Of a DNA stretch of 64,000 bases, positions 20,848 through 46,188 are shown piece by piece (position 1 is the stretch's first letter; every line of letters starts with the position of its first letter). Under the pieces are notes generated by a model that saw only the letters and a list, made by a program, of their open reading frames with translations, did no database searches and was not told the DNA's origin. The position numbers and the translations under genes are program-made. The DNA comes from a bacterium (GTDB lineage: Bacteria > Myxococcota_A > UBA9160 > UBA6930): NCBI GenBank assembly GCA_024228115.1, contig JAAETT010000234.1:26220-90219 (forward strand), in the 5' to 3' direction.

Positions 20848-20897
20848 CCTCCTCCACCCTTTTTCCTGAGGTCGCCTTGCTCCTCTTGCTAGGCGTG

Positions 20898-21280
20898 GAG
20901 TCGCCGGGGCCAGGCACAGGCCGGGCGGAATGGCTCGGCCGGGGGGCGGGGGGCCGCGCAGAAAGGTGGACGGGGTGTTGCCTACGCGGCTATCGCCGCG
21001 GGCAACCTACGCGCACGCTGAACGGGACCTATGCCTGCGCTTTATTTCCGCCCGACCTGCGCCTGGCCCCGGCGAGGCGGTCCCGGTTGCCTGCACGGCC
21101 GATCGTGGGGCGGGGGGCGGTCAGCGCGGAAATAAAGCGCAGGCATCTCGGCTATTGGGCGTGTGCAAGTTCGCTAGCGGCGAAGCCGCGTAAGCGAACC
21201 CGTGTCCAGGTCGAAAGCGGCCTACCAAGCCCCGGCCGAGCCATTCCGCGATGGCCGCCCCCCGGCCCGCGATCCGTCTC
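20898..21280. repeat. MITE-like nested inverted-repeat element between the convergent trxA and rodA genes
   Basis: Perfect 20-bp inverted repeat at 20925..20944 / 21230..21249 (GCGGAATGGCTCGGCCGGGG). Perfect 21-bp inner inverted repeat at 21031..21051 / 21126..21146 (ATGCCTGCGCTTTATTTCCGC). The segments between are imperfectly complementary. Its ends are related to the 11782..11824 repeat. No credible ORF inside. Confidence 0.6.
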
Positions 21281-21331
21281 GAGGAGCCAAGCGGCGCCTG
21301 CCGCAGGTTTGGCTGGGAAATGGGGGAGGGG

Positions 21332-34724: not shown

Positions 34725-36086
34725 GTGGACGAGCGTCAGAGCCAGGAGCGGCTCGCGAAACGGCTGACTGCGATGGGACTCGAGGTCGAGATCCTGGCCG
34801 GTGGCCGCTGTCTGCGCGGCGTCTTGTCGCTCGCTCACGAACCGTTCTTGACGCCCTCTGGGCCCCTCACGGTCTCCAGCATCGAGTTTGCCAGTGTGGG
34901 CCCCCAGCGCATCAAATGCCTGAGGCCCGCTTCCTTCTTCCAGCTGCCCATCATCTCGATCGCCGGCTGCGGAGAAGCCTCCGAGCTGGAGGGACGCATC
35001 CGCGCGGCCTGGATCGATCACATGGCGGGCCAGCGGAACCTGCGAAGCCAACTCGTGGAATCGCAGCTCGCCCATGAGAGCGAATGGGACGAGGCCGGCC
35101 TGGCACTCTCGGTCGGCCAGGATGATCCCGGCGCCCGGGCCCGTTGGATCGAGGGACGAACGTTCGCCCTCCCCTCGCCGGGCCCACTTGCCGGCCATGC
35201 CCTGGCGAGAGCCTCCGACCGGGTCATCGACCTACCGGCCGAGGCTCGCTCTGCTTCGGAGATCGAGATCGCCATCACCTCATGCCTGGATGAACTCACG
35301 CGACAGCTCGACCAACGTGAAGCCCGACGCCGGCGCCGCAGCGCCCTGGAGGGTGATGAAAGCCCGGCCGAGCCTCTGCACCCGGTCTTCCGGGGTCGCG
35401 ACCGCCAGATCCTGCTGGTCGGTCCGCAGCTCGCCGAGGATGCGGCGCTCGACGCAGCACTGCGCCAACGGGGCTTTCGCACGACCCAGGCTCGCGGTGC
35501 GGACAGCGCGCGCCGGGCGTTCGACGAGAGCTCATTCGAAGTGGTCGTGACCGACGCGGTTCTGGACCGGGCCGAAGGCCTCGAGCTGATTCCGACCCTG
35601 GCCGACGTACCTGGCATCGGGCAGCTGCCGGTCGTCCTGATCGACGACCGGGCCCGCGAAGGCCGAAGGGAGGCCGCTCGGGCCCTCGGCGCCGCCGGAT
35701 ACCTCGTGCGCCCACTCGACCCCCAGCGCCTGGCCGCGGGCCTGGAGCGCATGCTGGTCGAACGCCCGCGCCGCCGCTTCGACCGCTTCGCACGCAAACT
35801 GGCTGTGGCGTGGACAGACGGCTGCGACGGGTTCACGACCGTCGTCGGCCGGCTCGGAATGTTCGTCTCGACGGGGCGACAGAGCTCCCCGGGTGCCCTC
35901 GAGAGCGTGGAACTCGCGCTCCCCGAAACGGGGGAGCGCGTTTCCATGGACGTCGAAACCCTCTACCGCGTGGATCCCCGCGGCGGACGCGATCCCGGCA
36001 TCGGCGTGCGCATCCGCGCCTTCTCGGACGATCACGAGAGCCTATGGATCGACTATCTGACGGCCCTCGAAGGTGCGACTGGCTAG
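34725..36086 (+). CDS. three-part protein: unknown N-terminal domain, degenerate receiver (REC-like) domain, PilZ-like C-terminal domain
   Basis: REC-like region ILLVGPQLAEDAALDAALRQRGFRTTQARGADSARRAFDESSFEVVVTDAVLD...LPVVLIDD...GAAGYLVRP. The acidic pair is replaced by GPQ and the conserved Lys by Arg. The PilZ-like region has RRRFDRFAR and then ...VVGRLGMFVST ... GIGVRIRAF, so the D/NxSxxG motif is not conserved. Confidence 0.5.
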   Translation: MDERQSQERLAKRLTAMGLEVEILAGGRCLRGVLSLAHEPFLTPSGPLTVSSIEFASVGPQRIKCLRPASFFQLPIISIAGCGEASELEGRIRAAWIDHMAGQRNLRSQLVESQLAHESEWDEAGLALSVGQDDPGARARWIEGRTFALPSPGPLAGHALARASDRVIDLPAEARSASEIEIAITSCLDELTRQLDQREARRRRRSALEGDESPAEPLHPVFRGRDRQILLVGPQLAEDAALDAALRQRGFRTTQARGADSARRAFDESSFEVVVTDAVLDRAEGLELIPTLADVPGIGQLPVVLIDDRAREGRREAARALGAAGYLVRPLDPQRLAAGLERMLVERPRRRFDRFARKLAVAWTDGCDGFTTVVGRLGMFVSTGRQSSPGALESVELALPETGERVSMDVETLYRVDPRGGRDPGIGVRIRAFSDDHESLWIDYLTALEGATG

Positions 36087-36093
36087 CGCTGGC

Positions 36094-36306
36094 TCAGCCC
36101 AGCTTTGCGCGGGCCTTGTCGATATCGCTGTCCATGATCGTCTTGCGCTTGTCGGCGATCGCAGAGGCGTGAGCCTCACGCGCAAGCCGCGCAAGAAAAT
36201 CTTCCGTGGCTTCGACCGCTCGGTCGATCGCCGATCCAGAAACCCTGAGCCCGTCGCCATGTTTGGTGATGAGCCGCTTCACGACCGCGTTCGGCAAGTC
36301 TGCCAT
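36094..36306 (-). CDS. bacterial histone-fold protein (archaeal HMf-type singlet histone homologue)
   Basis: 70 aa: MADLPNAVVKRLITKHGDGLRVSGSAIDRAVEATEDFLARLAREAHASAIADKRKTIMDSDIDKARAKLG. It aligns along its full length with archaeal HMfB as remembered (LP.A...R.I, RVS, a long central helix, then RKTI...DI). A strong AGGAGG sits 5 nt before the ATG. The gene has its own 87-nt upstream intergenic region with a TTGACA hexamer at 36368..36363. Confidence 0.8.
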   Translation of the reverse strand: MADLPNAVVKRLITKHGDGLRVSGSAIDRAVEATEDFLARLAREAHASAIADKRKTIMDSDIDKARAKLG

Positions 36307-37607: not shown

Positions 37608-38363
37608 TCAGAGCCTGTTGATGAGGGTCGCCACGGTCGCAGCGCCAAAACCGTTGTCGATGTTCACCACTGTCACATTCGATGCGCAGCTGTTCAACAT
37701 GGCGAGTAGCGCCGCGAGGCCACCGAACGAAGCGCCGTAACCGACGCTGGTGGGCACGGCGATCACCGGCTTGTCGATCAGCCCTCCGACCACCGAGGCC
37801 AGGGCTCCCTCCATGCCAGCGACTGCGATCACCACACGAGCGCTCCGAAGCAATCGGCTCTCGCCTAACAGACGGTGCAGGCCGGCAACGCCGACGTCAG
37901 CGAGTAGCTCCACCTTGTTCCCGAAGCGCCTGGCCACGCCGGCTGCTTCTCGCGCGACCGGGAGATCCGACGTTCCCGCGCAGACCACGGCGATCGTTCC
38001 CTTGCCACGAATCTCGACCTCGGCCGGCCCGAACCAGAGCAACCGAGAGGCCTCGTCGTATTCTCCGCCAGGCAGTAGAGCCAGGATTTGCTGGGCAGCC
38101 GCCGGCTCGATCCGCGTCGCGAGCGGCGATTGGCCCGCCTCCACCAACGCCCGCGCGATCTCCGCGATCTGTCCCGGCTCCTTGCCGAGCCCGAAGATCA
38201 CCTCGGGGAGACCCTGACGAAGCGCCCGGTGGACATCGACGCGAGCCGCCCCCGATGGCGTCTCGATCGCAGGCGGCTGGGCGAGCGCTTCGAGAGCCTC
38301 GTCCGTGTCCAGCTCCCCGCTCCGTACCGCTTCGAGCAAAGCCCTTGCTTGTTCGCGTTCCAC
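37608..38363 (-). CDS. larB: nickel-pincer cofactor biosynthesis protein LarB (PurE-like carboxylase/hydrolase)
   Basis: [45 protein letters not shown] and [11 protein letters not shown] motifs. GTG start. Confidence 0.85.
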
Positions 38364-38408
38364 CGCGCGAGAGTAGCCGACTCCCCAGGCACCAAGTAAT
38401 GAGGCATC

Positions 38409-38515
38409 GGAAAGTCAACCAGTGGGGACGGAGTTTACAATTGACTTGTTGAAGAGGGGCGCTGCCCCTCTTCAACAAGTCAATTGTAAACTCCGTCCCC
38501 ACTGGTTGACTTTCC
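38409..38515. repeat. 107-bp perfect hairpin palindrome (52-bp arms, 3-nt centre GCT)
   Basis: 38409..38460 (GGAAAGTCAACCAGTGGGGACGGAGTTTACAATTGACTTGTTGAAGAGGGGC) is the exact reverse complement of 38464..38515. This is confirmed by the two opposite-strand track ORFs that end in the same peptide KVNQWGRSLQLTC. The arms are about 50 percent GC by hand count, within GC-rich flanks. Confidence 0.95.
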
Positions 38516-38525
38516 CAGAGCCGCA

Positions 38526-40106
38526 TTGACCGGTCGAGGCGCCCCCCCGAACATGAGGAACATGAGTCGGATGAGCAGAGTGGTGGCAGGGATTGCCACG
38601 CTGATTCTGGTGGCGCTCAGCTTCCCGCCACTCGGCTACTGGCCGCTTGCATTCGCGATGCTGGTCCCGATGTTGCTCGCATTGGAGCACCTCTCCGTGC
38701 TGCGGGCGATCGGGTTCGTGTGGCTCACCTGGATTGCGGTCGTCGTCGTCGTGTGGCGATCGGCCATCCACATCCTTTCCGTCGAGTTCCCTGTACCCGC
38801 CCCGCTTGCCTGGATCGTCCTGCTGCTCGTCGGCCTGGTCGGTGCGATCCCCCCAGCCCTGGCCGCAGGCGCCTACGGGCGGCTTCGCCCGAAGCTTCGA
38901 GCCAGCTCAGCTCCCCTGGTCTTCGCGGCGTTCTGGGTACTTGCCGAGTGGTTCCAGGTCGAGGCACTCCGCTTGCCGTGGTTGCTCTCGTCCCACACCC
39001 TGGCGCGCGTGCCGCTGGCGCTCCAGACGGCCGACCTGTTTGGCGCCTACGCGGTGAGCTTCTTGTTGGTCTCCCTGAATGCGGGGCTCGCCATCGCCCT
39101 GCTTCGCCGCTCGCTTCGGCCCGCACTCGTTCCCCTGCTGCTCGCCGTGCTGGCGGCCGGCTACGGAGCCTGGAGGCTCAGCAGCCCTGCCGGCTCTGGT
39201 GATGCATGGAGCATCGGGCTGGTACAGGCGGCGGTTCCGCAGTCGCAGCGCTTCCAACCCGGCTCGGCCCTGCGAAATACCCGCCGCCACCAGCAGCTGA
39301 CCCGGGCGCTGGCGGAGGGCCGGGAGCTGGATCTCGTCATCTGGTCCGAGACGACCATCGACACCGACCTGGACCAGACACCGAGGCTTCGGCAGGAGGT
39401 CGAGGCGTTCGCGAAGGATCTCGGCGTTCCGATCCTGACGGGCGCACCCCGCTCGAAAGAGGGATCGCCCACCAACTCGGTGGTCCTGATCCAGCCCGAC
39501 TCCGGAATCGGGGAGAGCTACGACAAACAAGTGCTGGTCCCGTTCGCGGAATCCGACCCACCGCTGCGGCCGATCTGGCAACCACTGCTAGGCGAGTTGG
39601 CAGTCGGGGTCCCCTACGTCCCGGGCCGCGTGCCCACCGTCTTCGCATCCGGCCCGGGACGTTTCTCCACTCCCATATGCTTCGAGACCGTATTCCCGGG
39701 AACGATCCGGGAGTTCGTCCGAGAGGGCGCGGGCTATCTCATCAACCTCTCGAACGATGTCTGGTTCGGAAGCCGGAGCGGTATGGAGATGCAGTTCCGG
39801 CATGCCATCTTCCGAGCCGTCGAGCATCGGAGCTGGGTGGTGCGGGCCGCCAACACCGGGATTTCCGGCTTCATCGATCCGGCCGGTCGCATCGTCGCCT
39901 CGATCGGTAGCTTCGATGAGGGGACGCTCACCGGGTCCGTGCAGAACTCCGAAGAGCAGACGCTCTATGCATGGGCCGGCGATCTACCGCTGCTGGTGAT
40001 CCTGGTCGCCCTACCCACCCTCGCATACTTCCGGGACAGGCATCGAACGGCAGATTGTTCACCCAACCCCGCTGATTCCCCGCAAGATGAGTGTGGGGTT
40101 TCTTAG
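38526..40106 (+). CDS. lnt: apolipoprotein N-acyltransferase
   Basis: Multi-TM N-terminal half and a nitrilase-like domain with the catalytic Cys context STPICFETVFPG and WVVRAANTGISGFIDP. The start is uncertain: TTG 38526, or ATG 38553, 38562 or 38571. Confidence 0.85.
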   Translation: MTGRGAPPNMRNMSRMSRVVAGIATLILVALSFPPLGYWPLAFAMLVPMLLALEHLSVLRAIGFVWLTWIAVVVVVWRSAIHILSVEFPVPAPLAWIVLLLVGLVGAIPPALAAGAYGRLRPKLRASSAPLVFAAFWVLAEWFQVEALRLPWLLSSHTLARVPLALQTADLFGAYAVSFLLVSLNAGLAIALLRRSLRPALVPLLLAVLAAGYGAWRLSSPAGSGDAWSIGLVQAAVPQSQRFQPGSALRNTRRHQQLTRALAEGRELDLVIWSETTIDTDLDQTPRLRQEVEAFAKDLGVPILTGAPRSKEGSPTNSVVLIQPDSGIGESYDKQVLVPFAESDPPLRPIWQPLLGELAVGVPYVPGRVPTVFASGPGRFSTPICFETVFPGTIREFVREGAGYLINLSNDVWFGSRSGMEMQFRHAIFRAVEHRSWVVRAANTGISGFIDPAGRIVASIGSFDEGTLTGSVQNSEEQTLYAWAGDLPLLVILVALPTLAYFRDRHRTADCSPNPADSPQDECGVS

Positions 40107-40231
40107 CCGGAACCTCGAGAAACCACTCGGAACCGGAAATTGACCCGTCTTGGGACCTCCGGAACTGCTCCCAACGGGAGGAGTTGGAGAGGTCCGATCC
40201 CGCGCTCACGAAAAGCTCCTAGGAGACCTGC

Positions 40232-42779
40232 ATGTGCATCCCGAAGCTGCGGCACCTCGTCGTCGTTCTCTGCGCAGTGGCCCTTTTGGCCCCCTCTGCC
40301 TCCGAAGCCGGCCGGCCGCGCGCCTCCCATGAGGCCTTCGGACACCAAAGCTACCTGAGCCCCCAGTCGAACCCGATTGCGTTCTCCGAGTGCGCAACCA
40401 GTTCCTGGGTCTTCGCCGTCAGCACCACCAGCAACCGGGTGGACGTGATCAACGCGGCTACGAACACCTGGTCCGATCACGTCCGGGTCGGCATGGACCC
40501 CGTCGCCCTGGCGGTCAAGCCGACGGCAACCTGCGCCGGTCGCGAACTCTGGGTCTCCAACCACATCTCCGACTCGGTCAGCGTGGTCGATATCGACCCG
40601 AGCAGCGCCAGCTTCCTGCAGATCGTCGAAACCATCCAGGAAGTCGATTCCAACGGCGTGAGCCAGTTCGATGAGCCGGTCGGGATCGCGTTCAGCCTGA
40701 ACTCCAACAAGGCCTACGTGGCTCTCTCTTCCCGCAACGATGTTGCCGTGATCGACACCACCACCTACGCCGTGACGTCTCGCCTGCACATCACCAACCA
40801 GGACCCGCGAGCGCTGACGGTTCGTCGCCTGGGACCCAACCAGGGCGACCCGGAACTGCTCTACGTCGCCGCCTTCGAATCGGGCAACCAGACGGAGCTC
40901 TCGCTCTGCGGAAGCGTTTCACCCGGCAGCCAATGCACGATGGACTTCGGACAGTTCGCCGTCAACCTCCTTGCCATTGGCCCCGCCCTTGCCGGCCTTC
41001 CGCATAACATCGTGGTCGACCCGGACGTCCCGGACCGGGATGTCTTCGTCTACAACACCTCCACCGACACCCTGGTTTCGGGAGGCGCGGTCGAGCACGT
41101 CGGCTCACTGCTCTACGGCATCGCGGTCGACAGCTCCGGCAACGCCTTCGTGGCACAGACCGAGGCGCGGAATGCTGCCAATGGCCTCGCCGCCCTGCCG
41201 CCCGAAGGGAATACCGAAGATCTCGTCGACCTCGACAACCGGCTCTTCCTCAACCAGATCGGCACCCTCAGCTGCACGGCGGGCGGCTGCGGATCGCCCG
41301 GGCTGATCGAACTCGAACCGCTTCCCCCCTCCCACCCGACGGCAGGGAACCAGCTCGCCACCCCCTACGGCATCGCCATCAGCGATGACGATTCGACCCT
41401 GGTCATGACCGCCGCCGGATCGAGTCGCGTCTTCACGGTCGACACCAGCAGCGGCACGGCGCTCGACATTGCCGATCTCGGGAGCGGCGCGAGCGAGTTC
41501 CAGCAGATCCCGCGCGGCGTCGTGCTCCGGTCGAATGCCACCACAGGCGCCCCGGAAACGGCCTATGTGCTGAATACGCTCGAAAATACTGTCTCGGTGA
41601 TCGACGTCAGCAATCCCTCGGCCATCTCGACCGGCGGCAGCAAGATCAACGTCGGAGCGGATCCGACGCCCGCCGCAGTTCGCAGGGGACGTATCGCGCT
41701 CAACAACGCCAACGGCTCGACCACCGGCACCTTCTCCTGCGGCAGCTGCCACCCGGATGGCAACACCGACCAGTTGTTGTGGAACCTCGGCGCGCAATGC
41801 ACGTGGACGGCGCTCTGTGCCCAGAAGGAGCCTCGTAGCACCATGCCGATTCGTGGACTCCGCGACACCTTGCCGTTGCATTGGGACGGAGTTCCGGGTG
41901 ATCCCTTCGGTGGACCGAACGGTGAGGTGGGGCTCTCCGGCTCCTCCGGGCCCAACTGTGCCACCGAACATGATTGCTTCCGCGACCTGGTCGACGGTGG
42001 CCTTACCGGCGTGATGTGCGATCAGGCCAGCGGTTGCCCCAGTCCGCAGCTGACGACGGCGGAACGCGACGACATGGCAGACTTTCTTGCAGTCGTTTCC
42101 TACCCGCCGGCGCGTTCGCGGCGGGTCGATGACAGCCTCTCGGTCTCGGCCCTGACCGGTTTCGAGGATTTCTTCATGGATCAGGGGGGCGTTGCAGCAC
42201 CGACGACCTGCGCCGATTCCGACGGGGGCTGCCACGAACTTCCGCTCGGAACCGCGACGGCCTCCGAATCGCTGGGTGGATTCGACTCTCCGACCCAACG
42301 CGGGCTGACGGATCGCTACGTGCAGTTCTCCTCCGGATTCACCAGCACCGAGGAGATCATGCTCGCGTCGAATAGCGGCATCTCGACGCCGCTCTTCGGC
42401 ACGGGCCCGCCGAACGACTTCCCCTACGACCCGGCCGGCGGGCTCGAAGAGGAAACCACGTTCGGCGTCGCCTTCGCGGTCTTCAACCCGGTCTACAACG
42501 TCGATGCCGGAACCATCTTCCAGATGTTCGAAGAGGCCAGCAACGGGCATCCCGGCGCGCTCGGGCGCCAGGTGACGTTGAACAACGTGACGACGATCGA
42601 CCCGCCCGGCCCCTCGCTCTCGCCGGCGGAGGAGGTCCTGGTCGATCTCGAAGCCGCCGACGTCCAGGGCGTGGTGAACCTCCGAGGCTTTGGGATCCGC
42701 TTCGGAATCCAGGACGTTCCCATTTCTCGACAATGGGAAATACCAGGTGGGGCCCAACCAGTTGACCCGAGCGCAGATC
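40232..42779 (+). pseudogene. large secreted beta-propeller (YVTN-like repeats) protein with a CXXCH heme-binding motif; 5' part, truncated by the IS3 insertion
   Basis: Signal peptide MCIPKLRHLVVVLCAVALLAPSASEA. Repeated ...N.V.VID... beta-propeller units (SNRVDVINAATN, SDSVSVVDIDP, RNDVAVIDTTT, ENTVSVIDVSN). FSCGSCHPDGNTDQLLWNL. The track ORF reads into the IS terminal repeat. The last roughly 50-100 nt before the IS are better coded in the +1 frame. Confidence 0.65.
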
Positions 42780-42809
42780 TGAACCGCCCCGGGTTCTCCG
42801 GAGACCCAG

Positions 42810-44039
<1,230 letters not shown>

Positions 44040-44092
44040 GACCCAATCCTCTCAAGGAATCGAGCCTCCGGCAAACCCGGGGCGGTTCAATC

Positions 44093-44512
44093 CTCGCCGA
44101 GGCACAGGTGGGAGATCTACTCGCAACCGTGACAGCCCATCTGCGCGCCGGCGTGAGTGAGAACACACCCCAGCCCCTCGCTTCGGTGCCCGGTGCGAAC
44201 TGCGGAACTGGAGTGGGCACGACCGGGGACCCGGCGCTTCCGGTCCTCTCGGGCAGCGCAACCGAGATGATTCTCGAAACCCTCCACGTCACCACCGCGG
44301 ACCACGTATTCGTGGATGGCCTGCTCGACGGCAGCGCCTCCATCAGCATGCTCGGTGGCACCTCGCTTTGTGAATCAATCGGCGATGACACGGTCGCGAC
44401 CGACCGGGTGTTGGTCGATCTGGGGAGCACACCGTCCAACGGAACCCACCTGCTCCAGATCCAGACCGATCAGGGGCTTCTCTCGAACGAGCTCCCGTTC
44501 GTCGTCCAATAG
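44093..44512 (+). pseudogene. 3' part of the IS-disrupted beta-propeller/CXXCH protein gene
   Basis: The frame of track ORF 44108..44512 is open back to the target duplication (ATC CTC GCC GAG GCA CAG GTG ...). It joins the +1 frame upstream of the IS (…FPFLDNGKYQVGPNQLTRAQI|LAEAQVGDLLATV…). The C-terminal beta-rich domain ends in ...LLSNELPFVVQ. Confidence 0.6.
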
Positions 44513-44530
44513 CCTGGATCGTCGGCCGGT

Positions 44531-44556
44531 GGTCGGGGGAACCGCCTCCCCCGACC
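44531..44556. terminator. GC-rich hairpin between convergent genes (possible bidirectional terminator)
   Basis: GGTCGGGGGA-ACCGCC-TCCCCCGACC forms a perfect 10-bp stem, extendable with a bulge to 44523..44564. No U-tract. Confidence 0.35.
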
Positions 44557-44583
44557 GGCCGGTGGCCGGGGCAATCACCCAGG

Positions 44584-46152
44584 CTACGGGCAGTGAAGGG
44601 ACAGGCGAAGGATCCGCTCCTCCACCTCACTCCCGCGGAATCGGCGTTGCCCCAACAAGAGGGTCCTGGCATCTCGCGATAGGCTGATTCCGGTCGGCAC
44701 TCCCCAACTCCCGAGTTCGCCGAGTTCCAGAGCCACACGCTCTCCACCGACTTCACCGAACTCGACGCCGGTGCCGTCGAAGAGCGGCCGGTCGAGTTCC
44801 TCACGGTCGGCAGCTGCGGCCAACAGGAAACCGAGCTGGCCCGGAAGCAGTCCGAGGGTCCGACTCCGCCGGGTCGTAGCAAGCGCCAGGAAGGAACCAT
44901 CCCCGTTGAACGAAGCGCCCCCTGCCCAGACGACCTCAGACCCGAGGGATTTCTCCTCTCCGGTGGTCAGATCAAGGGCGAGAGCCTTCAGCGGCCGGTA
45001 GGGATTGCCGCGCGCCAGCAGGAACGTGCGCGCATCGGGCGACCAGGCCAGCGGCACCACCCATTGGGAGCCACCAGACACGATCACCTCGGCTTCCCCC
45101 AACTGGAGTCCCCCGTGGCCGGTCCGGACGGTCGTCGTCACCAGCGCGTAGCCATCCTTCGTCTCGCGAGACCAGAGAAGCCGACCCGACGCCGGACCGA
45201 TCCAGGCGTGGTCATCGGAGCCCGGGTGATCCGTGAGCCTGCGCGAACCGGTACGCGGCACCTCGCCCTCTGTTCCGATGGCATGCAGCTCCGTGTTGCG
45301 AGGGTGCCTCCAACTGGCGTGTCGATCGGTGGCGAACACCATCCCAGTGCCGCTGTGCGCCAGGGCCGGGCGAACATTGTTCCCCGCTTCGCCGCAGGTC
45401 CAGCAACGCGAACGCCCCGAGGCGAGATCGAGCCAGAAGATCTGGCGGCCCCCCGCCTCGGTCGCCGCGTCGAACCAGATCCGCTTCTCTTCCGGGTCGA
45501 AGCGCGGGTGCGCTCCGCTCCCGGGAAGGATTTCGAAGCCGGCGAGTTCGCCCTTGCAGCGCGGCGCGGGAAGCATCTCCAGCCGGGCATCGACGTCGAA
45601 GACCTCGGATACCATCGCGGCCGAGGGGGGCGGTGCAGCGGGCGTAGAGGCCGCTCCCAACCCGGCAAGCAGGACGATGCCTAACGTACCCCCCAGCGCG
45701 GCAGCGGCCCCCTTCCCGAGTTGACGGAGGAGGCCCGGACCGGGGCCGTCCCGGCGCGCCGCTCGAAACAGGCCAACGAAGACGAGCAGCAGGACGAGCA
45801 AGAGGAGAACCGTCGCACTCGGCGCAAGCTCCACCAGACTCGCAAAGCAGGCGGGCAGTGCAGCCAGCCCCAGGACCGCGCCATCGGCCAGGTGGCGCAT
45901 CCGCAGAGGGCCCTCCCCGGTCCGCCGGGCGATCAGGGAGAGCAGCACGACGAGCAGAAGGCCGCCTGCCAACGCTCCGGCAGCGATCCAAGCCGGCGAA
46001 GGAGCTTCGGCCACCGCCAGGATCGCCAACGCTCCGACCGGGAGACCCGCGAACCCACTGCAAAGCCGCCAGATCAAGAGCAACACCTCCGCAAAGGCCG
46101 GAAGAATACGGGACCTTCGTGGCTTCGCCCGCTGGGACCGTCTTCCGAACAC
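44584..46152 (-). CDS. membrane-anchored TolB-like (PD40/WD40-like beta-propeller) protein, unknown function
   Basis: Four or so N-terminal hydrophobic helices, then repeats of the type LAWSPDARTFLLA and ASFNGDGSFLALA. Confidence 0.5.
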   Translation of the reverse strand: MFGRRSQRAKPRRSRILPAFAEVLLLIWRLCSGFAGLPVGALAILAVAEAPSPAWIAAGALAGGLLLVVLLSLIARRTGEGPLRMRHLADGAVLGLAALPACFASLVELAPSATVLLLLVLLLVFVGLFRAARRDGPGPGLLRQLGKGAAAALGGTLGIVLLAGLGAASTPAAPPPSAAMVSEVFDVDARLEMLPAPRCKGELAGFEILPGSGAHPRFDPEEKRIWFDAATEAGGRQIFWLDLASGRSRCWTCGEAGNNVRPALAHSGTGMVFATDRHASWRHPRNTELHAIGTEGEVPRTGSRRLTDHPGSDDHAWIGPASGRLLWSRETKDGYALVTTTVRTGHGGLQLGEAEVIVSGGSQWVVPLAWSPDARTFLLARGNPYRPLKALALDLTTGEEKSLGSEVVWAGGASFNGDGSFLALATTRRSRTLGLLPGQLGFLLAAAADREELDRPLFDGTGVEFGEVGGERVALELGELGSWGVPTGISLSRDARTLLLGQRRFRGSEVEERILRLSLHCP

Positions 46153-46188
46153 GCCCCAGCCACTTCCCGATCAGCAGCCGGGAACGAT

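What the first reader, a model, noticed from the sequence alone, without database searches (positions are those of the whole stretch)
38409..38515. 107-bp perfect palindrome in the divergent larB / lnt intergenic region
The 52-nt arms are exact reverse complements around a 3-nt centre (GCT). The arms are about 50 percent GC, unlike the GC-rich flanks. Perfect palindromes of this length are normally unstable in bacteria because of SbcCD and replication slippage, so its persistence needs explaining. It fills most of the 162-bp gap between two divergent genes. Each outer end carries an outward-facing TTGACT hexamer: 38506..38511 faces lnt, and 38418..38413 on the minus strand faces larB. Each arm also carries an inward-facing TACAAT. 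It could therefore be a symmetric bidirectional promoter or operator module, a cruciform-forming site, a foldback or hairpin-type mobile remnant, or an assembly foldback artefact. I found no flanking direct repeat and no second copy in this window.
Basis: seen in the sequence. Interest (0 to 1): 0.6.

Follow-up and report, generated by a model that had tools for sequence, protein, structure and literature searches.

The report
Inherited 107-bp perfect DNA palindrome
A real, single-copy 107-bp perfect DNA palindrome lies between the larB and lnt genes of an uncultured marine bacterium, next to a local gene rearrangement; related strains carry it intact, changed identically in both arms, or mostly deleted, so it looks like a self-correcting but decaying DNA structure rather than a promoter or an assembly error.

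Summary
Arms 38409-38460 and 38464-38515 are exact reverse complements around GCT. They are 50% GC against 66-68% in the flanks. The next-longest perfect hairpin in the 64 kb has 13-nt arms.

It is not an assembly artefact. A separate metagenome assembly of a lineage about 92% identical (L003) has the same palindrome at the same place, with one extra G/C pair in both arms and no substitutions. The flanking spacer differs at 7 of 100 positions and by a 26-nt indel.

A third lineage (L005) lacks 85 nt, exactly between two ATTGAC direct repeats. This is most likely a slippage deletion.

The palindrome lies next to a rearrangement junction. A 7.7-kb lnt block sits between cheX and larB only in this lineage.

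I found no sigma-70-like promoter, terminator or Rfam family. I found no target-site duplication and no second copy in any collection searched. The one exception is an unexplained 26-nt identity with gut Lachnospiraceae.

Best reading: a vertically inherited structural palindrome, kept perfect by hairpin-templated copying between the arms and lost by slippage. It has no demonstrated regulatory role.

Rivals are an orphan member of a mobile palindromic repeat family and a selected cis-regulatory element. A relative, L007, has a different, dispersed perfect palindrome upstream of larB. Interest is moderate.

The parts
38409..38460 (.). Left arm of the palindrome (52 nt, 50% GC): GGAAAGTCAACCAGTGGGGACGGAGTTTACAATTGACTTGTTGAAGAGGGGC
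   Evidence: It is identical in L003 apart from one extra G at the inner end. Its first 37 nt are retained in L005 with one A-to-G change.
38461..38463 (.). Asymmetric 3-nt centre, GCT
   Evidence: L003 has the same centre in the same orientation.
38464..38515 (.). Right arm, the exact reverse complement of the left arm
   Evidence: It is absent from L005.
38440..38445 (+). First ATTGAC direct repeat, inside the left arm. It is the left end point of the 85-nt segment missing in L005.
   Evidence: Removing 38446-38530 from the window reproduces the L005 junction.
38525..38530 (+). Second ATTGAC direct repeat, 10 nt beyond the right arm. It is the right end point of the L005 deletion. It overlaps TTGACC (38526-38531), a weak -35-like hexamer followed after 17 nt by GAACAT (38549-38554).
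   Evidence: The promoter reading is my inference only and falls below the scan threshold.
38364..38408 (.). Spacer between the larB start and the palindrome (45 nt). It has 3 substitutions against L003 and 5 against L005. Similarity to the larB upstream region of relatives with the older gene order reaches only about 38380-38394.
38516..38570 (.). Spacer between the palindrome and the lnt start. It has 4 substitutions against L003 and lacks 26 nt that L003 carries after about 38522.
37608..38363 (-). larB (251 aa, AIR-carboxylase domain). It is the first gene of larB-larC-histone-fold.
38571..40106 (+). lnt (apolipoprotein N-acyltransferase, 511 aa from this ATG). It is the first gene of the relocated block.
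38385..46152 (.). Approximate extent of the relocated block: lnt, a 990-aa ORF and a 497-aa ORF, now also holding an IS3-type insertion. It lies between cheX and larB only in the window, L003 and L005. The left boundary is uncertain by about 25 nt. The palindrome sits within about 25 nt of that boundary.
   Evidence: tblastn of relatives' proteins; cheX and larB adjacent in nine loci, or separated only by a methyltransferase gene; no palindrome or arm remnant at the far junction 46153-46188.

Best explanation
This is a genuine, vertically inherited, single-copy long perfect DNA palindrome with no product of its own.

It arose in the common ancestor of three sampled lineages, in the spacer created when a 7.7-kb lnt block was moved between cheX and larB. 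How it arose is not resolved. It could be a foldback or template-switch copy made at or near the new junction, or an inserted palindromic element.

Since then its behaviour follows from its ability to fold into a hairpin during replication.

(a) When one arm changes, the nascent strand can fold back and copy the other arm. The change is then either erased or transferred to both arms, so the palindrome stays perfect without selection on each base.

(b) Slipped mispairing between short direct repeats across the hairpin deletes it.

Shown here:
- the palindrome exists and is present in a second assembly;
- the two arms differ from L003 by the same one-base change;
- a deletion allele is bounded by ATTGAC repeats;
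- the palindrome lies next to the rearrangement junction;
- promoter, terminator and RNA-family signals are absent.

Inferred: the template-switch and slippage mechanisms, and the view that any effect on larB or lnt expression is incidental.
For: Reality and inheritance. L003 is an ENA assembly from a different sample, 92.4% identical over 7.7 kb. It has the palindrome at the orthologous site with 53-nt arms.

Co-evolution of the arms. The only difference inside the palindrome is one extra G in the left arm and the matching extra C in the right arm.

Decay. L005 has the same lnt/larB arrangement (LarB 96% identical). It reads ...GTTTACAATTGAC|CGGTCGAGG..., which is the window minus 38446-38530, and that segment is bounded by ATTGAC at 38440-38445 and 38525-38530. 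Informative sites favour the grouping (window,(L003,L005)): 46 against 35 and 19. Loss in L005 is therefore more parsimonious than two independent gains.

Location. Nine loci from relatives have cheX and larB adjacent, or separated only by a methyltransferase gene. The window has the lnt block between them.

No functional signature. There are 0 promoter-like and 0 terminator-like sites. Rfam gives only sub-threshold miRNA-precursor matches. The motifs are not repeated in the window.

Single copy.
- No other copy in the window.
- None in about 150 kb of fetched loci, about 105 kb of it from relatives.
- No source-lineage copy among the GTDB species representatives.
- None in JGI metagenomes, apart from one chance 20-mer hit.
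- None in IMG/VR.
- None in plasmids or phages.

Literature.
- Template switching makes imperfect inverted repeats perfect (PMC7202029).
- Perfect inverted repeats are conserved more than expected in Proteobacteria (PMC5941160).
- An 85-bp chromosomal palindrome is tolerated in E. coli (PMC3315005).
Against: The arms show 0 substitutions in 107 nt against L003, while the flanking spacer shows 7 in 100. This gives P about 0.0004 if all sites are independent, and about 0.02 if the two arms count once. Template switching alone should not lower the substitution rate, so some sequence-level constraint or a local recombination event is possible.

The symmetric one-base difference lies in a homopolymer run. 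It comes from a contig labelled 4x that also has two probable single-base errors in lnt. It could therefore be a consensus error.

The polarity of L005 (deletion or ancestral state) rests on a conflicting site count. Alignments to the outgroup L002 were not significant.

Only 64 kb of this genome could be searched, so 'single copy' is not proven genome-wide.

The origin of the palindrome is not explained.
Confidence: 0.5

Rival explanations
1. It is an orphan or low-copy member of a mobile palindromic repeat family, of the REPIN or MITE kind, that inserted into the new lnt/larB spacer. Other copies would lie elsewhere in the genome, outside the window.
For: A relative with a complete 5.83-Mb circular contig (L007) carries a different 73-bp perfect palindrome, also with a 3-nt centre, directly upstream of larB. 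A second 97% copy lies 5.5 kb away after lon. This is a dispersed family in the same clade at the equivalent site.

The arms are 50% GC in a 66% GC genome.

The window also holds a second, imperfect ~390-nt hairpin-forming region at 20890-21285.

A 26-nt exact identity with Lachnospiraceae sequences hints at a travelling sequence.
Against: No second copy was found in the window, in the loci fetched from relatives, or in any collection scanned.

There is no target-site duplication.

The arm does not fold on its own as a REP unit would: z = -0.8, against -3.5 for the L007 arm.

Similarity to the L007 palindrome is not significant, P about 0.08.

The only insertion sequence in the window has unrelated terminal repeats.
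Confidence: 0.2
2. It is a selected cis-regulatory element for larB and/or lnt. It could be an operator array for a symmetric DNA-binding protein, a supercoil-driven cruciform switch between divergent promoters, or a long hairpin in a 5' leader processed by a double-strand RNase.
For: The arms carry fewer substitutions than the flanking spacer. Pooling window-L003 and window-L005 gives 1 in 90 arm positions against 12 in 146 spacer positions (counted).

Four AAGTCAA/TTGACTT half-sites are regularly spaced.

The relocation cut larB off from the che genes that precede it in relatives, so it may need a new promoter.

L005 keeps the larB-proximal arm.

In Lachnospiraceae the shared 26-mer overlaps a plausible promoter, TTGACT-17 nt-GACAAT (my reading).
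Against: No promoter-like site was found. The hexamer orientations within an arm are incompatible with a single promoter.

The spacing to lnt differs by 26 nt between the window and L003.

L005 has lost the centre and the whole right arm.

Close relatives express the same genes without any palindrome.

The motifs are not reused in the window. No regulator gene is adjacent.
Confidence: 0.2
3. It is an assembly or amplification foldback artefact.
For: A short contig of the same strain (L001) ends inside the left arm, at window position 38456. This shows that assemblers struggle here.
Against: The palindrome is flanked by unique genes on both sides. It recurs, with diverged flanks, in a separate assembly from another sample. 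A related deletion allele exists whose junction cannot be produced by graph collapse.
Confidence: 0.02

Closest known systems
Natural perfect inverted repeats and quasipalindromes kept perfect by replication template switching (the E. coli thyA hotspot; a survey of Proteobacteria). PMC7202029, PMC5941160.
   Same: The arms are perfectly complementary. The element is conserved across orthologous loci. The one change seen between lineages is present in both arms.
   Different: It is much longer: 52-nt arms, where PMC5941160 describes 'short' perfect inverted repeats. It lies at a rearrangement junction. Template switching itself has not been observed here.
Engineered chromosomal palindromes in E. 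coli (85-bp and 246-bp interrupted palindromes; SbcCD cleavage). PMC3315005.
   Same: It is a long palindrome with a short asymmetric centre and can form a hairpin. Its size lies between the tolerated 85-bp case and the 246-bp case that is cleaved at every replication cycle.
   Different: It is natural, sits in an uncultured marine bacterium, and has been inherited over about 8% sequence divergence. Whether this organism has SbcCD is unknown.
REPINs (REP doublets forming hairpins) mobilised by RAYT transposases. PMC3116915, PMC3337134.
   Same: It is an intergenic element of about 100 nt that folds into one long hairpin. A relative (L007) has a dispersed palindrome family that resembles REPINs more closely.
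   Different: Only one copy was found. The arm is not itself a short REP hairpin. No RAYT was identified. The arms are perfect rather than imperfect.
Bacterial MITEs such as Correia and ERIC elements (named from my own knowledge, not checked here).
   Same: It is short and non-coding, has terminal inverted repeats, and lies in an intergenic region.
   Different: There is no target-site duplication, no other copies, and no matching parent insertion sequence. The whole element is one palindrome rather than two terminal repeats around a core.
Palindromic AT-rich repeats at human translocation breakpoints. PMC1851657 (title and abstract only).
   Same: A long palindrome coincides with a rearrangement breakpoint.
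   Different: The organism, size and base composition all differ. Here it is unknown whether the palindrome caused the rearrangement or resulted from it.

Membership tests
REPIN/REP | Two inverted REP units, each forming its own short hairpin | tested here: not met
   The window arm folds no better than shuffled sequence (-4.0 kcal/mol, z = -0.8). The L007 arm does fold (z = -3.5).
REPIN/REP | Tens to hundreds of copies per genome | tested here: inconclusive
   No other copy in the 64-kb window, in the loci from relatives, or in the collections scanned. The rest of this genome was not available.
REPIN/REP | An associated single-copy RAYT transposase | not tested
   None of the seven ORFs scanned around the locus is a transposase. 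The whole window was not scanned.
MITE | Target-site duplication flanking the terminal repeats | tested here: not met
   The flanks are ...GGCATC and CAGAGC.... They share no direct repeat, and only 5 of 20 positions extend the palindrome.
MITE | Terminal repeats shared with a parent insertion sequence | tested here: not met
   The only insertion sequence in the window (about 42771-44092) has unrelated terminal repeats. No k-mer of 11 nt or more from the arms occurs elsewhere in the window.
Sigma-70-type bidirectional promoter | -35 and -10 hexamers in the same orientation, 16-18 nt apart | tested here: not met
   No sites in 38000-39000. TTGACT and TACAAT within an arm face opposite ways.
Intrinsic (bidirectional) terminator | GC-rich stem followed by a T run, placed downstream of genes | tested here: not met
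   No terminator-like sites. The flanking genes diverge from the element rather than converge on it.
Any Rfam RNA family | Score at or above the family's gathering threshold | tested here: not met
   Nothing at gathering score at this locus. At the E-value threshold only sub-threshold miRNA-precursor models match, as expected for any long hairpin.
Perfect inverted repeat maintained by template switching | Perfect arm complementarity retained in diverged orthologues, with changes present in both arms | tested here: met
   Window: 52-nt arms. L003: 53-nt arms with an added G/C pair. Both are 100% complementary, while the flanks have diverged. Caveat: this rests on a single event in a contig labelled 4x.
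Perfect inverted repeat maintained by template switching | Direct demonstration of intramolecular template switching | not testable with these tools
   This needs a genetic reporter or a mutation-accumulation experiment.
Hairpin-telomere (protelomerase) target site | An adjacent telomere resolvase gene and a linear replicon | not tested
   The neighbours are housekeeping genes. No phage or plasmid similarity was found.

The most novel reading that the evidence does not exclude
The palindrome may not be passive.

One possibility is that it is a selected symmetric DNA or RNA structure that took over control of larB and lnt after the rearrangement.

The other is that it is the founding example of a class of perfect-palindrome elements with 3-nt centres in this marine clade. 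Such elements would mark, or mediate, the capture of gene blocks at the cheX|larB spacer. That site is occupied by a different perfect palindrome in L007, by a methyltransferase gene in L008/L009, and by the 7.7-kb lnt block here.

The 26-nt identity with Lachnospiraceae would then reflect a shared mobile or protein-binding module.
Probability: 0.12. Interest if true: 0.65.

Novelty: new member of a known kind. Interest (0 to 1): 0.35.

Why it matters
Long perfect palindromes are rare in bacterial chromosomes. Most of what is known about how they survive comes from engineered constructs in E. coli.

This locus offers three natural alleles of one palindrome in closely related lineages: intact, symmetrically altered, and deleted between short direct repeats. 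That allows a test in the wild of two ideas: that template switching keeps palindromes perfect, and that slippage removes them.

Its position next to a lineage-specific gene relocation also raises a question that can be tested. Are such palindromes made by rearrangements, or do they promote them?

If instead it proves to regulate larB or lnt, it would be an unusually long symmetric control element.

Tried and rejected
Collection searches.
- An inner-arm 22-mer against the GTDB species representatives gave no hit.
- A 20-mer against JGI metagenomes gave one hit in an AT-rich, unrelated contig with no palindrome. I judged it chance.
- IMG/VR scans gave nothing. BLAST against plasmids and phages gave nothing.

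Homology between the two palindrome types. A local alignment of the arms shares only GGGGACG, P about 0.08. I rejected this as evidence of common origin.

Attempt to decide whether L005 is ancestral or a deletion. Alignments of the spacer to the outgroup L002 were not significant, P = 0.13-0.28. I relied instead on informative-site counts.

Attempt to find the donor site of the lnt block. I searched for homologues of the cyclase that precedes lnt in L002. The contigs found (L018-L021) could not be assigned to the window's lineage and held no palindrome or lnt.

Regulon idea. Sub-motifs of the arm are not repeated in the window beyond chance.

Rfam at a permissive threshold gave only miRNA-precursor models, which match any long hairpin.

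Resemblance to the binding repeats of Tc1/Sleeping Beauty-type transposons (CCAGTGGG-N5-AGTTTACA). I recalled this from memory only. No TA duplication flanks any candidate end, so I did not pursue it.

Full report
**1. The observation**

Window 38409-38515 is a perfect palindrome. The arms are 38409-38460 and 38464-38515, each 52 nt and 100% complementary, around the centre GCT.

About 3e-24 such palindromes are expected by chance in 64 kb. The next-longest perfect hairpin in the window has 13-nt arms. Each arm is 50% GC, against 68% and 66% in the flanks.

A second, inner TTGACT/AGTCAA pair exists as well. Each arm therefore reads AAGTCAA-N22-TTGACTT.

As single-stranded DNA the element folds into one hairpin of -67.3 kcal/mol, z = -21.

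The gene calls hold.
- The left ORF has an AIR-carboxylase domain, and NCBI names the identical protein LarB. larC and a 70-aa histone-fold gene follow it on the minus strand.
- lnt lies on the plus strand.
- With the ATG at 38571, which gives NCBI's 511-aa Lnt, the spacer is 207 nt, not 162.

**2. It is not an artefact**

The identical LarB protein is also encoded on a 2449-bp contig of another NCBI assembly (L001). That contig is 100% identical to the window and ends at 38456, inside the left arm. This is what short-read assemblers do at an inverted repeat. L001 may come from the same reads, so I do not count it as independent.

The decisive evidence is L003, a 9.8-kb contig from a different ENA sample.
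- Its gene order is the same (histone-fold, larC, larB, then lnt on the other strand).
- It is 92.4% identical to the window over 7.7 kb.
- At the orthologous position it has a 109-bp perfect palindrome with 53-nt arms and the same GCT centre.

**3. Three alleles**

*Window against L003.* Inside the palindrome there are no substitutions. The only difference is one extra G at the inner end of the left arm and the matching extra C in the right arm: GAGGGGC GCT GCCCCTC against GAGGGGGC GCT GCCCCCTC.

The 100 nt of spacer on either side differ at 7 positions. L003 also has 26 extra nt between the right arm and lnt. Zero changes in 107 nt at 7% divergence has P about 0.0004. If the two arms are counted once (55 sites), P is about 0.02. 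These are my calculations.

One caveat applies. L003 is labelled 4x and carries two single-base insertions in lnt that the window, L005 and L002 all lack. One-base differences in it must be read with care.

*L005.* This is a 5-kb contig from a public run, with LarB 96% identical and the same divergent lnt/larB arrangement. It has no inverted repeat.

In window orientation it reads ...CACC GGAAAGTCAACCAGTGGGGACGGgGTTTACAATTGAC|CGGTCGAGG.... This equals the window with 38446-38530 removed. That 85-nt segment is bounded by ATTGAC at 38440-38445 and 38525-38530.

Is L005 a deletion or the ancestral state? Informative sites in larB-larC-histone and in lnt group L003 with L005 (46 sites). The alternatives are window with L003 (35 sites) and window with L005 (19 sites). 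On the favoured tree the palindrome was present in the common ancestor and was lost in L005.

Mechanistically, a deletion between 6-bp direct repeats across a hairpin is a single step. The reverse would need an 85-nt insertion containing an exact inverted copy of its own flank. The site counts conflict, which suggests recombination. Alignments to the outgroup L002 were not significant. I put the deletion reading at about 75%.

**4. Genomic context**

In relatives whose LarB is 76-93% identical, larB follows the che genes on the same strand. These are L006-L009 and L014-L017. The gap is 13-94 nt, or holds one methyltransferase gene.

A tblastn search of their proteins against the window gives this order:
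- lon, AIRS, MCP, cheW, a response regulator, Hpt, cheA and cheX at 54098-46204 (minus strand);
- then a 497-aa ORF, a 990-aa ORF and lnt;
- then the palindrome;
- then larB, larC, the histone-fold gene, a response regulator and groEL.

In L002, which comes from the same MAG as L009, lnt and the 990-aa and 497-aa ORFs lie elsewhere, after a cyclase gene.

So a block of about 7.7 kb was relocated between cheX and larB in the ancestor of the window, L003 and L005. The palindrome lies within about 25 nt of its larB-side junction. The far junction (46153-46188) has no palindrome and no arm remnant.

The organism is an uncultured marine bacterium.
- NCBI labels it 'bacterium', and a close relative 'Deltaproteobacteria bacterium'.
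- More distant homologues are named Myxococcota.
- Some relatives come from TARA metagenomes.

**5. Tests of function**

*Promoter.* There is no sigma-70-like site in 38000-39000.
- TTGACT and TACAAT in one arm point in opposite directions.
- No -10-like hexamer lies 16-18 nt beyond the outward TTGACT on either side.
- A weak candidate lnt promoter (TTGACC 38526-38531, 17 nt, GAACAT) lies outside the palindrome and is kept in all three alleles. This is my reading, and it is below the scan threshold.
- The 26-nt indel changes the distance between the palindrome and lnt by about 2.5 helical turns. Precise operator-promoter geometry is unlikely to survive that.

*Terminator.* No terminator-like site was found, and the genes diverge from the element.

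*RNA families.* Nothing scores at gathering threshold. At the permissive threshold only miRNA-precursor models match.

*Operator motif.* The sub-motifs do not recur in the window beyond chance.

**6. Tests of mobility**

- There is no target-site duplication.
- There is no second copy in the window at up to 3 mismatches.
- No k-mer of 11 nt or more from the arms occurs elsewhere in the window or in the loci fetched from relatives.
- Two scans of 185,579 species-representative genomes, one of JGI metagenomes, two of IMG/VR, and BLAST against plasmids and phages found no copy from this lineage.
- The IS3-type element in the window (ALIL pseudoknot 43644-43760; about 42771-44092; absent from L003 and L002) has unrelated ends.

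Two observations keep the mobile-element reading alive.

First, L007 is part of a 5.83-Mb circular contig from a relative. It has a different 73-bp perfect palindrome with 35-nt arms and centre AAA, placed immediately after the cheX stop and 21 nt before larB. A second 97% copy with centre TCC overlaps the lon stop 5.5 kb away. That is a dispersed family. Its arm folds on its own (z = -3.5), unlike the window's arm (z = -0.8). The two types share only GGGGACG, P about 0.08.

Second, the outer-arm 20-mer hit four loci, all in gut Lachnospiraceae. The identity extends to 26 nt: AAGTCAACCAGTGGGGACGGAGTTTA. I estimate the chance of such a 26-mer at about 0.004. I cannot explain it.

**7. Mechanism**

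The simplest account that fits all of this is a structural palindrome whose evolution is driven by its own hairpin.

Template switching at imperfect inverted repeats is known to make them perfect (PMC7202029). Perfect inverted repeats are conserved beyond expectation across Proteobacteria (PMC5941160). The paired G/C change fits that process.

Slippage between short direct repeats explains L005.

Persistence is not paradoxical. In E. coli an 85-bp chromosomal palindrome is tolerated even with SbcCD and without RecA. A 246-bp one is cleaved at every replication cycle yet survives through recombination (PMC3315005).

The low substitution count in the arms is not explained by this mechanism. It leaves room for selection.

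The origin is unresolved. It could be a foldback or template-switch copy made when the block was joined, or an inserted element.

**8. Verdict**

The palindrome is real and inherited. On present evidence it is single-copy and non-regulatory. It is a natural long perfect palindrome caught in three evolutionary states beside a rearrangement junction.

It is a new member of a known kind. Interest is moderate (0.35).

Noticed in passing
window 20890-21285: An intergenic stretch of about 390 nt folds as one long imperfect hairpin on either strand (RNA MFE -269 and -252 kcal/mol, z = -9.6 and -9.3). The DNA arms, about 20925-21070 and 21107-21249, are about 73% complementary with indels. There is no Rfam match. 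It is a second long, imperfect palindrome or an unknown structured RNA.
   Followed up: partly
L007:9907-9979 and L007:4330-4398: A relative with a 5.83-Mb circular contig has a dispersed 70-73-bp perfect or near-perfect palindrome: GTGAGACAAGGGGACGTTCCTTTCTGTCTCACGGC, then 3 nt, then the reverse complement. Both copies abut or overlap a TGA stop codon (cheX, lon). The loops differ (AAA, TCC). One copy sits directly upstream of larB. The genome-wide copy number was not determined.
   Followed up: partly
L010-L013 (Lachnospiraceae; for example L013:2431-2456): A 26-nt exact identity (AAGTCAACCAGTGGGGACGGAGTTTA) links the palindrome arm to a conserved intergenic sequence upstream of an ACT-domain gene in Muricoprocola aceti, a Marvinbryantia MAG and an uncultured Lachnospiraceae MAG. 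In L012 its CCAGTGGGGAC has an exact inverted partner 22 nt away, which is imperfect in L013. The chance estimate is about 0.004. Unexplained.
   Followed up: partly
window ~38385-46152: The block of lnt, a 990-aa ORF and a 497-aa ORF lies between cheX and larB only in the window, L003 and L005. In all other relatives fetched, cheX and larB are adjacent or separated by one methyltransferase gene. The cheX|larB spacer therefore looks like a recurrent insertion site.
   Followed up: yes
window 42771-44092: An IS3-family insertion sequence interrupts the 990-aa ORF. Its ALIL frameshift pseudoknot is at 43644-43760 on the minus strand, and its terminal repeats are at 42780-42818 and 44051-44089. 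It is absent from L003 and L002, so the insertion is recent.
   Followed up: partly
window 36094-36306 (-): A 70-aa histone-fold protein gene (Pfam Histone / CBFD_NFYB_HMF) follows larC. It is conserved at that position in every relative fetched.
   Followed up: no
L003:3595-3615 (window ~38616-38632): L003 has two single-base insertions in the 5' part of lnt that the window, L005 and L002 lack. This explains its shorter gene call. They are either errors in a contig labelled 4x or a disrupted gene.
   Followed up: no
L001:2373-2449: The short contig that is otherwise identical to the window diverges from it for its last 77 nt, beyond window position 36085. This could be a strain variant or a chimeric contig end.
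   Followed up: no
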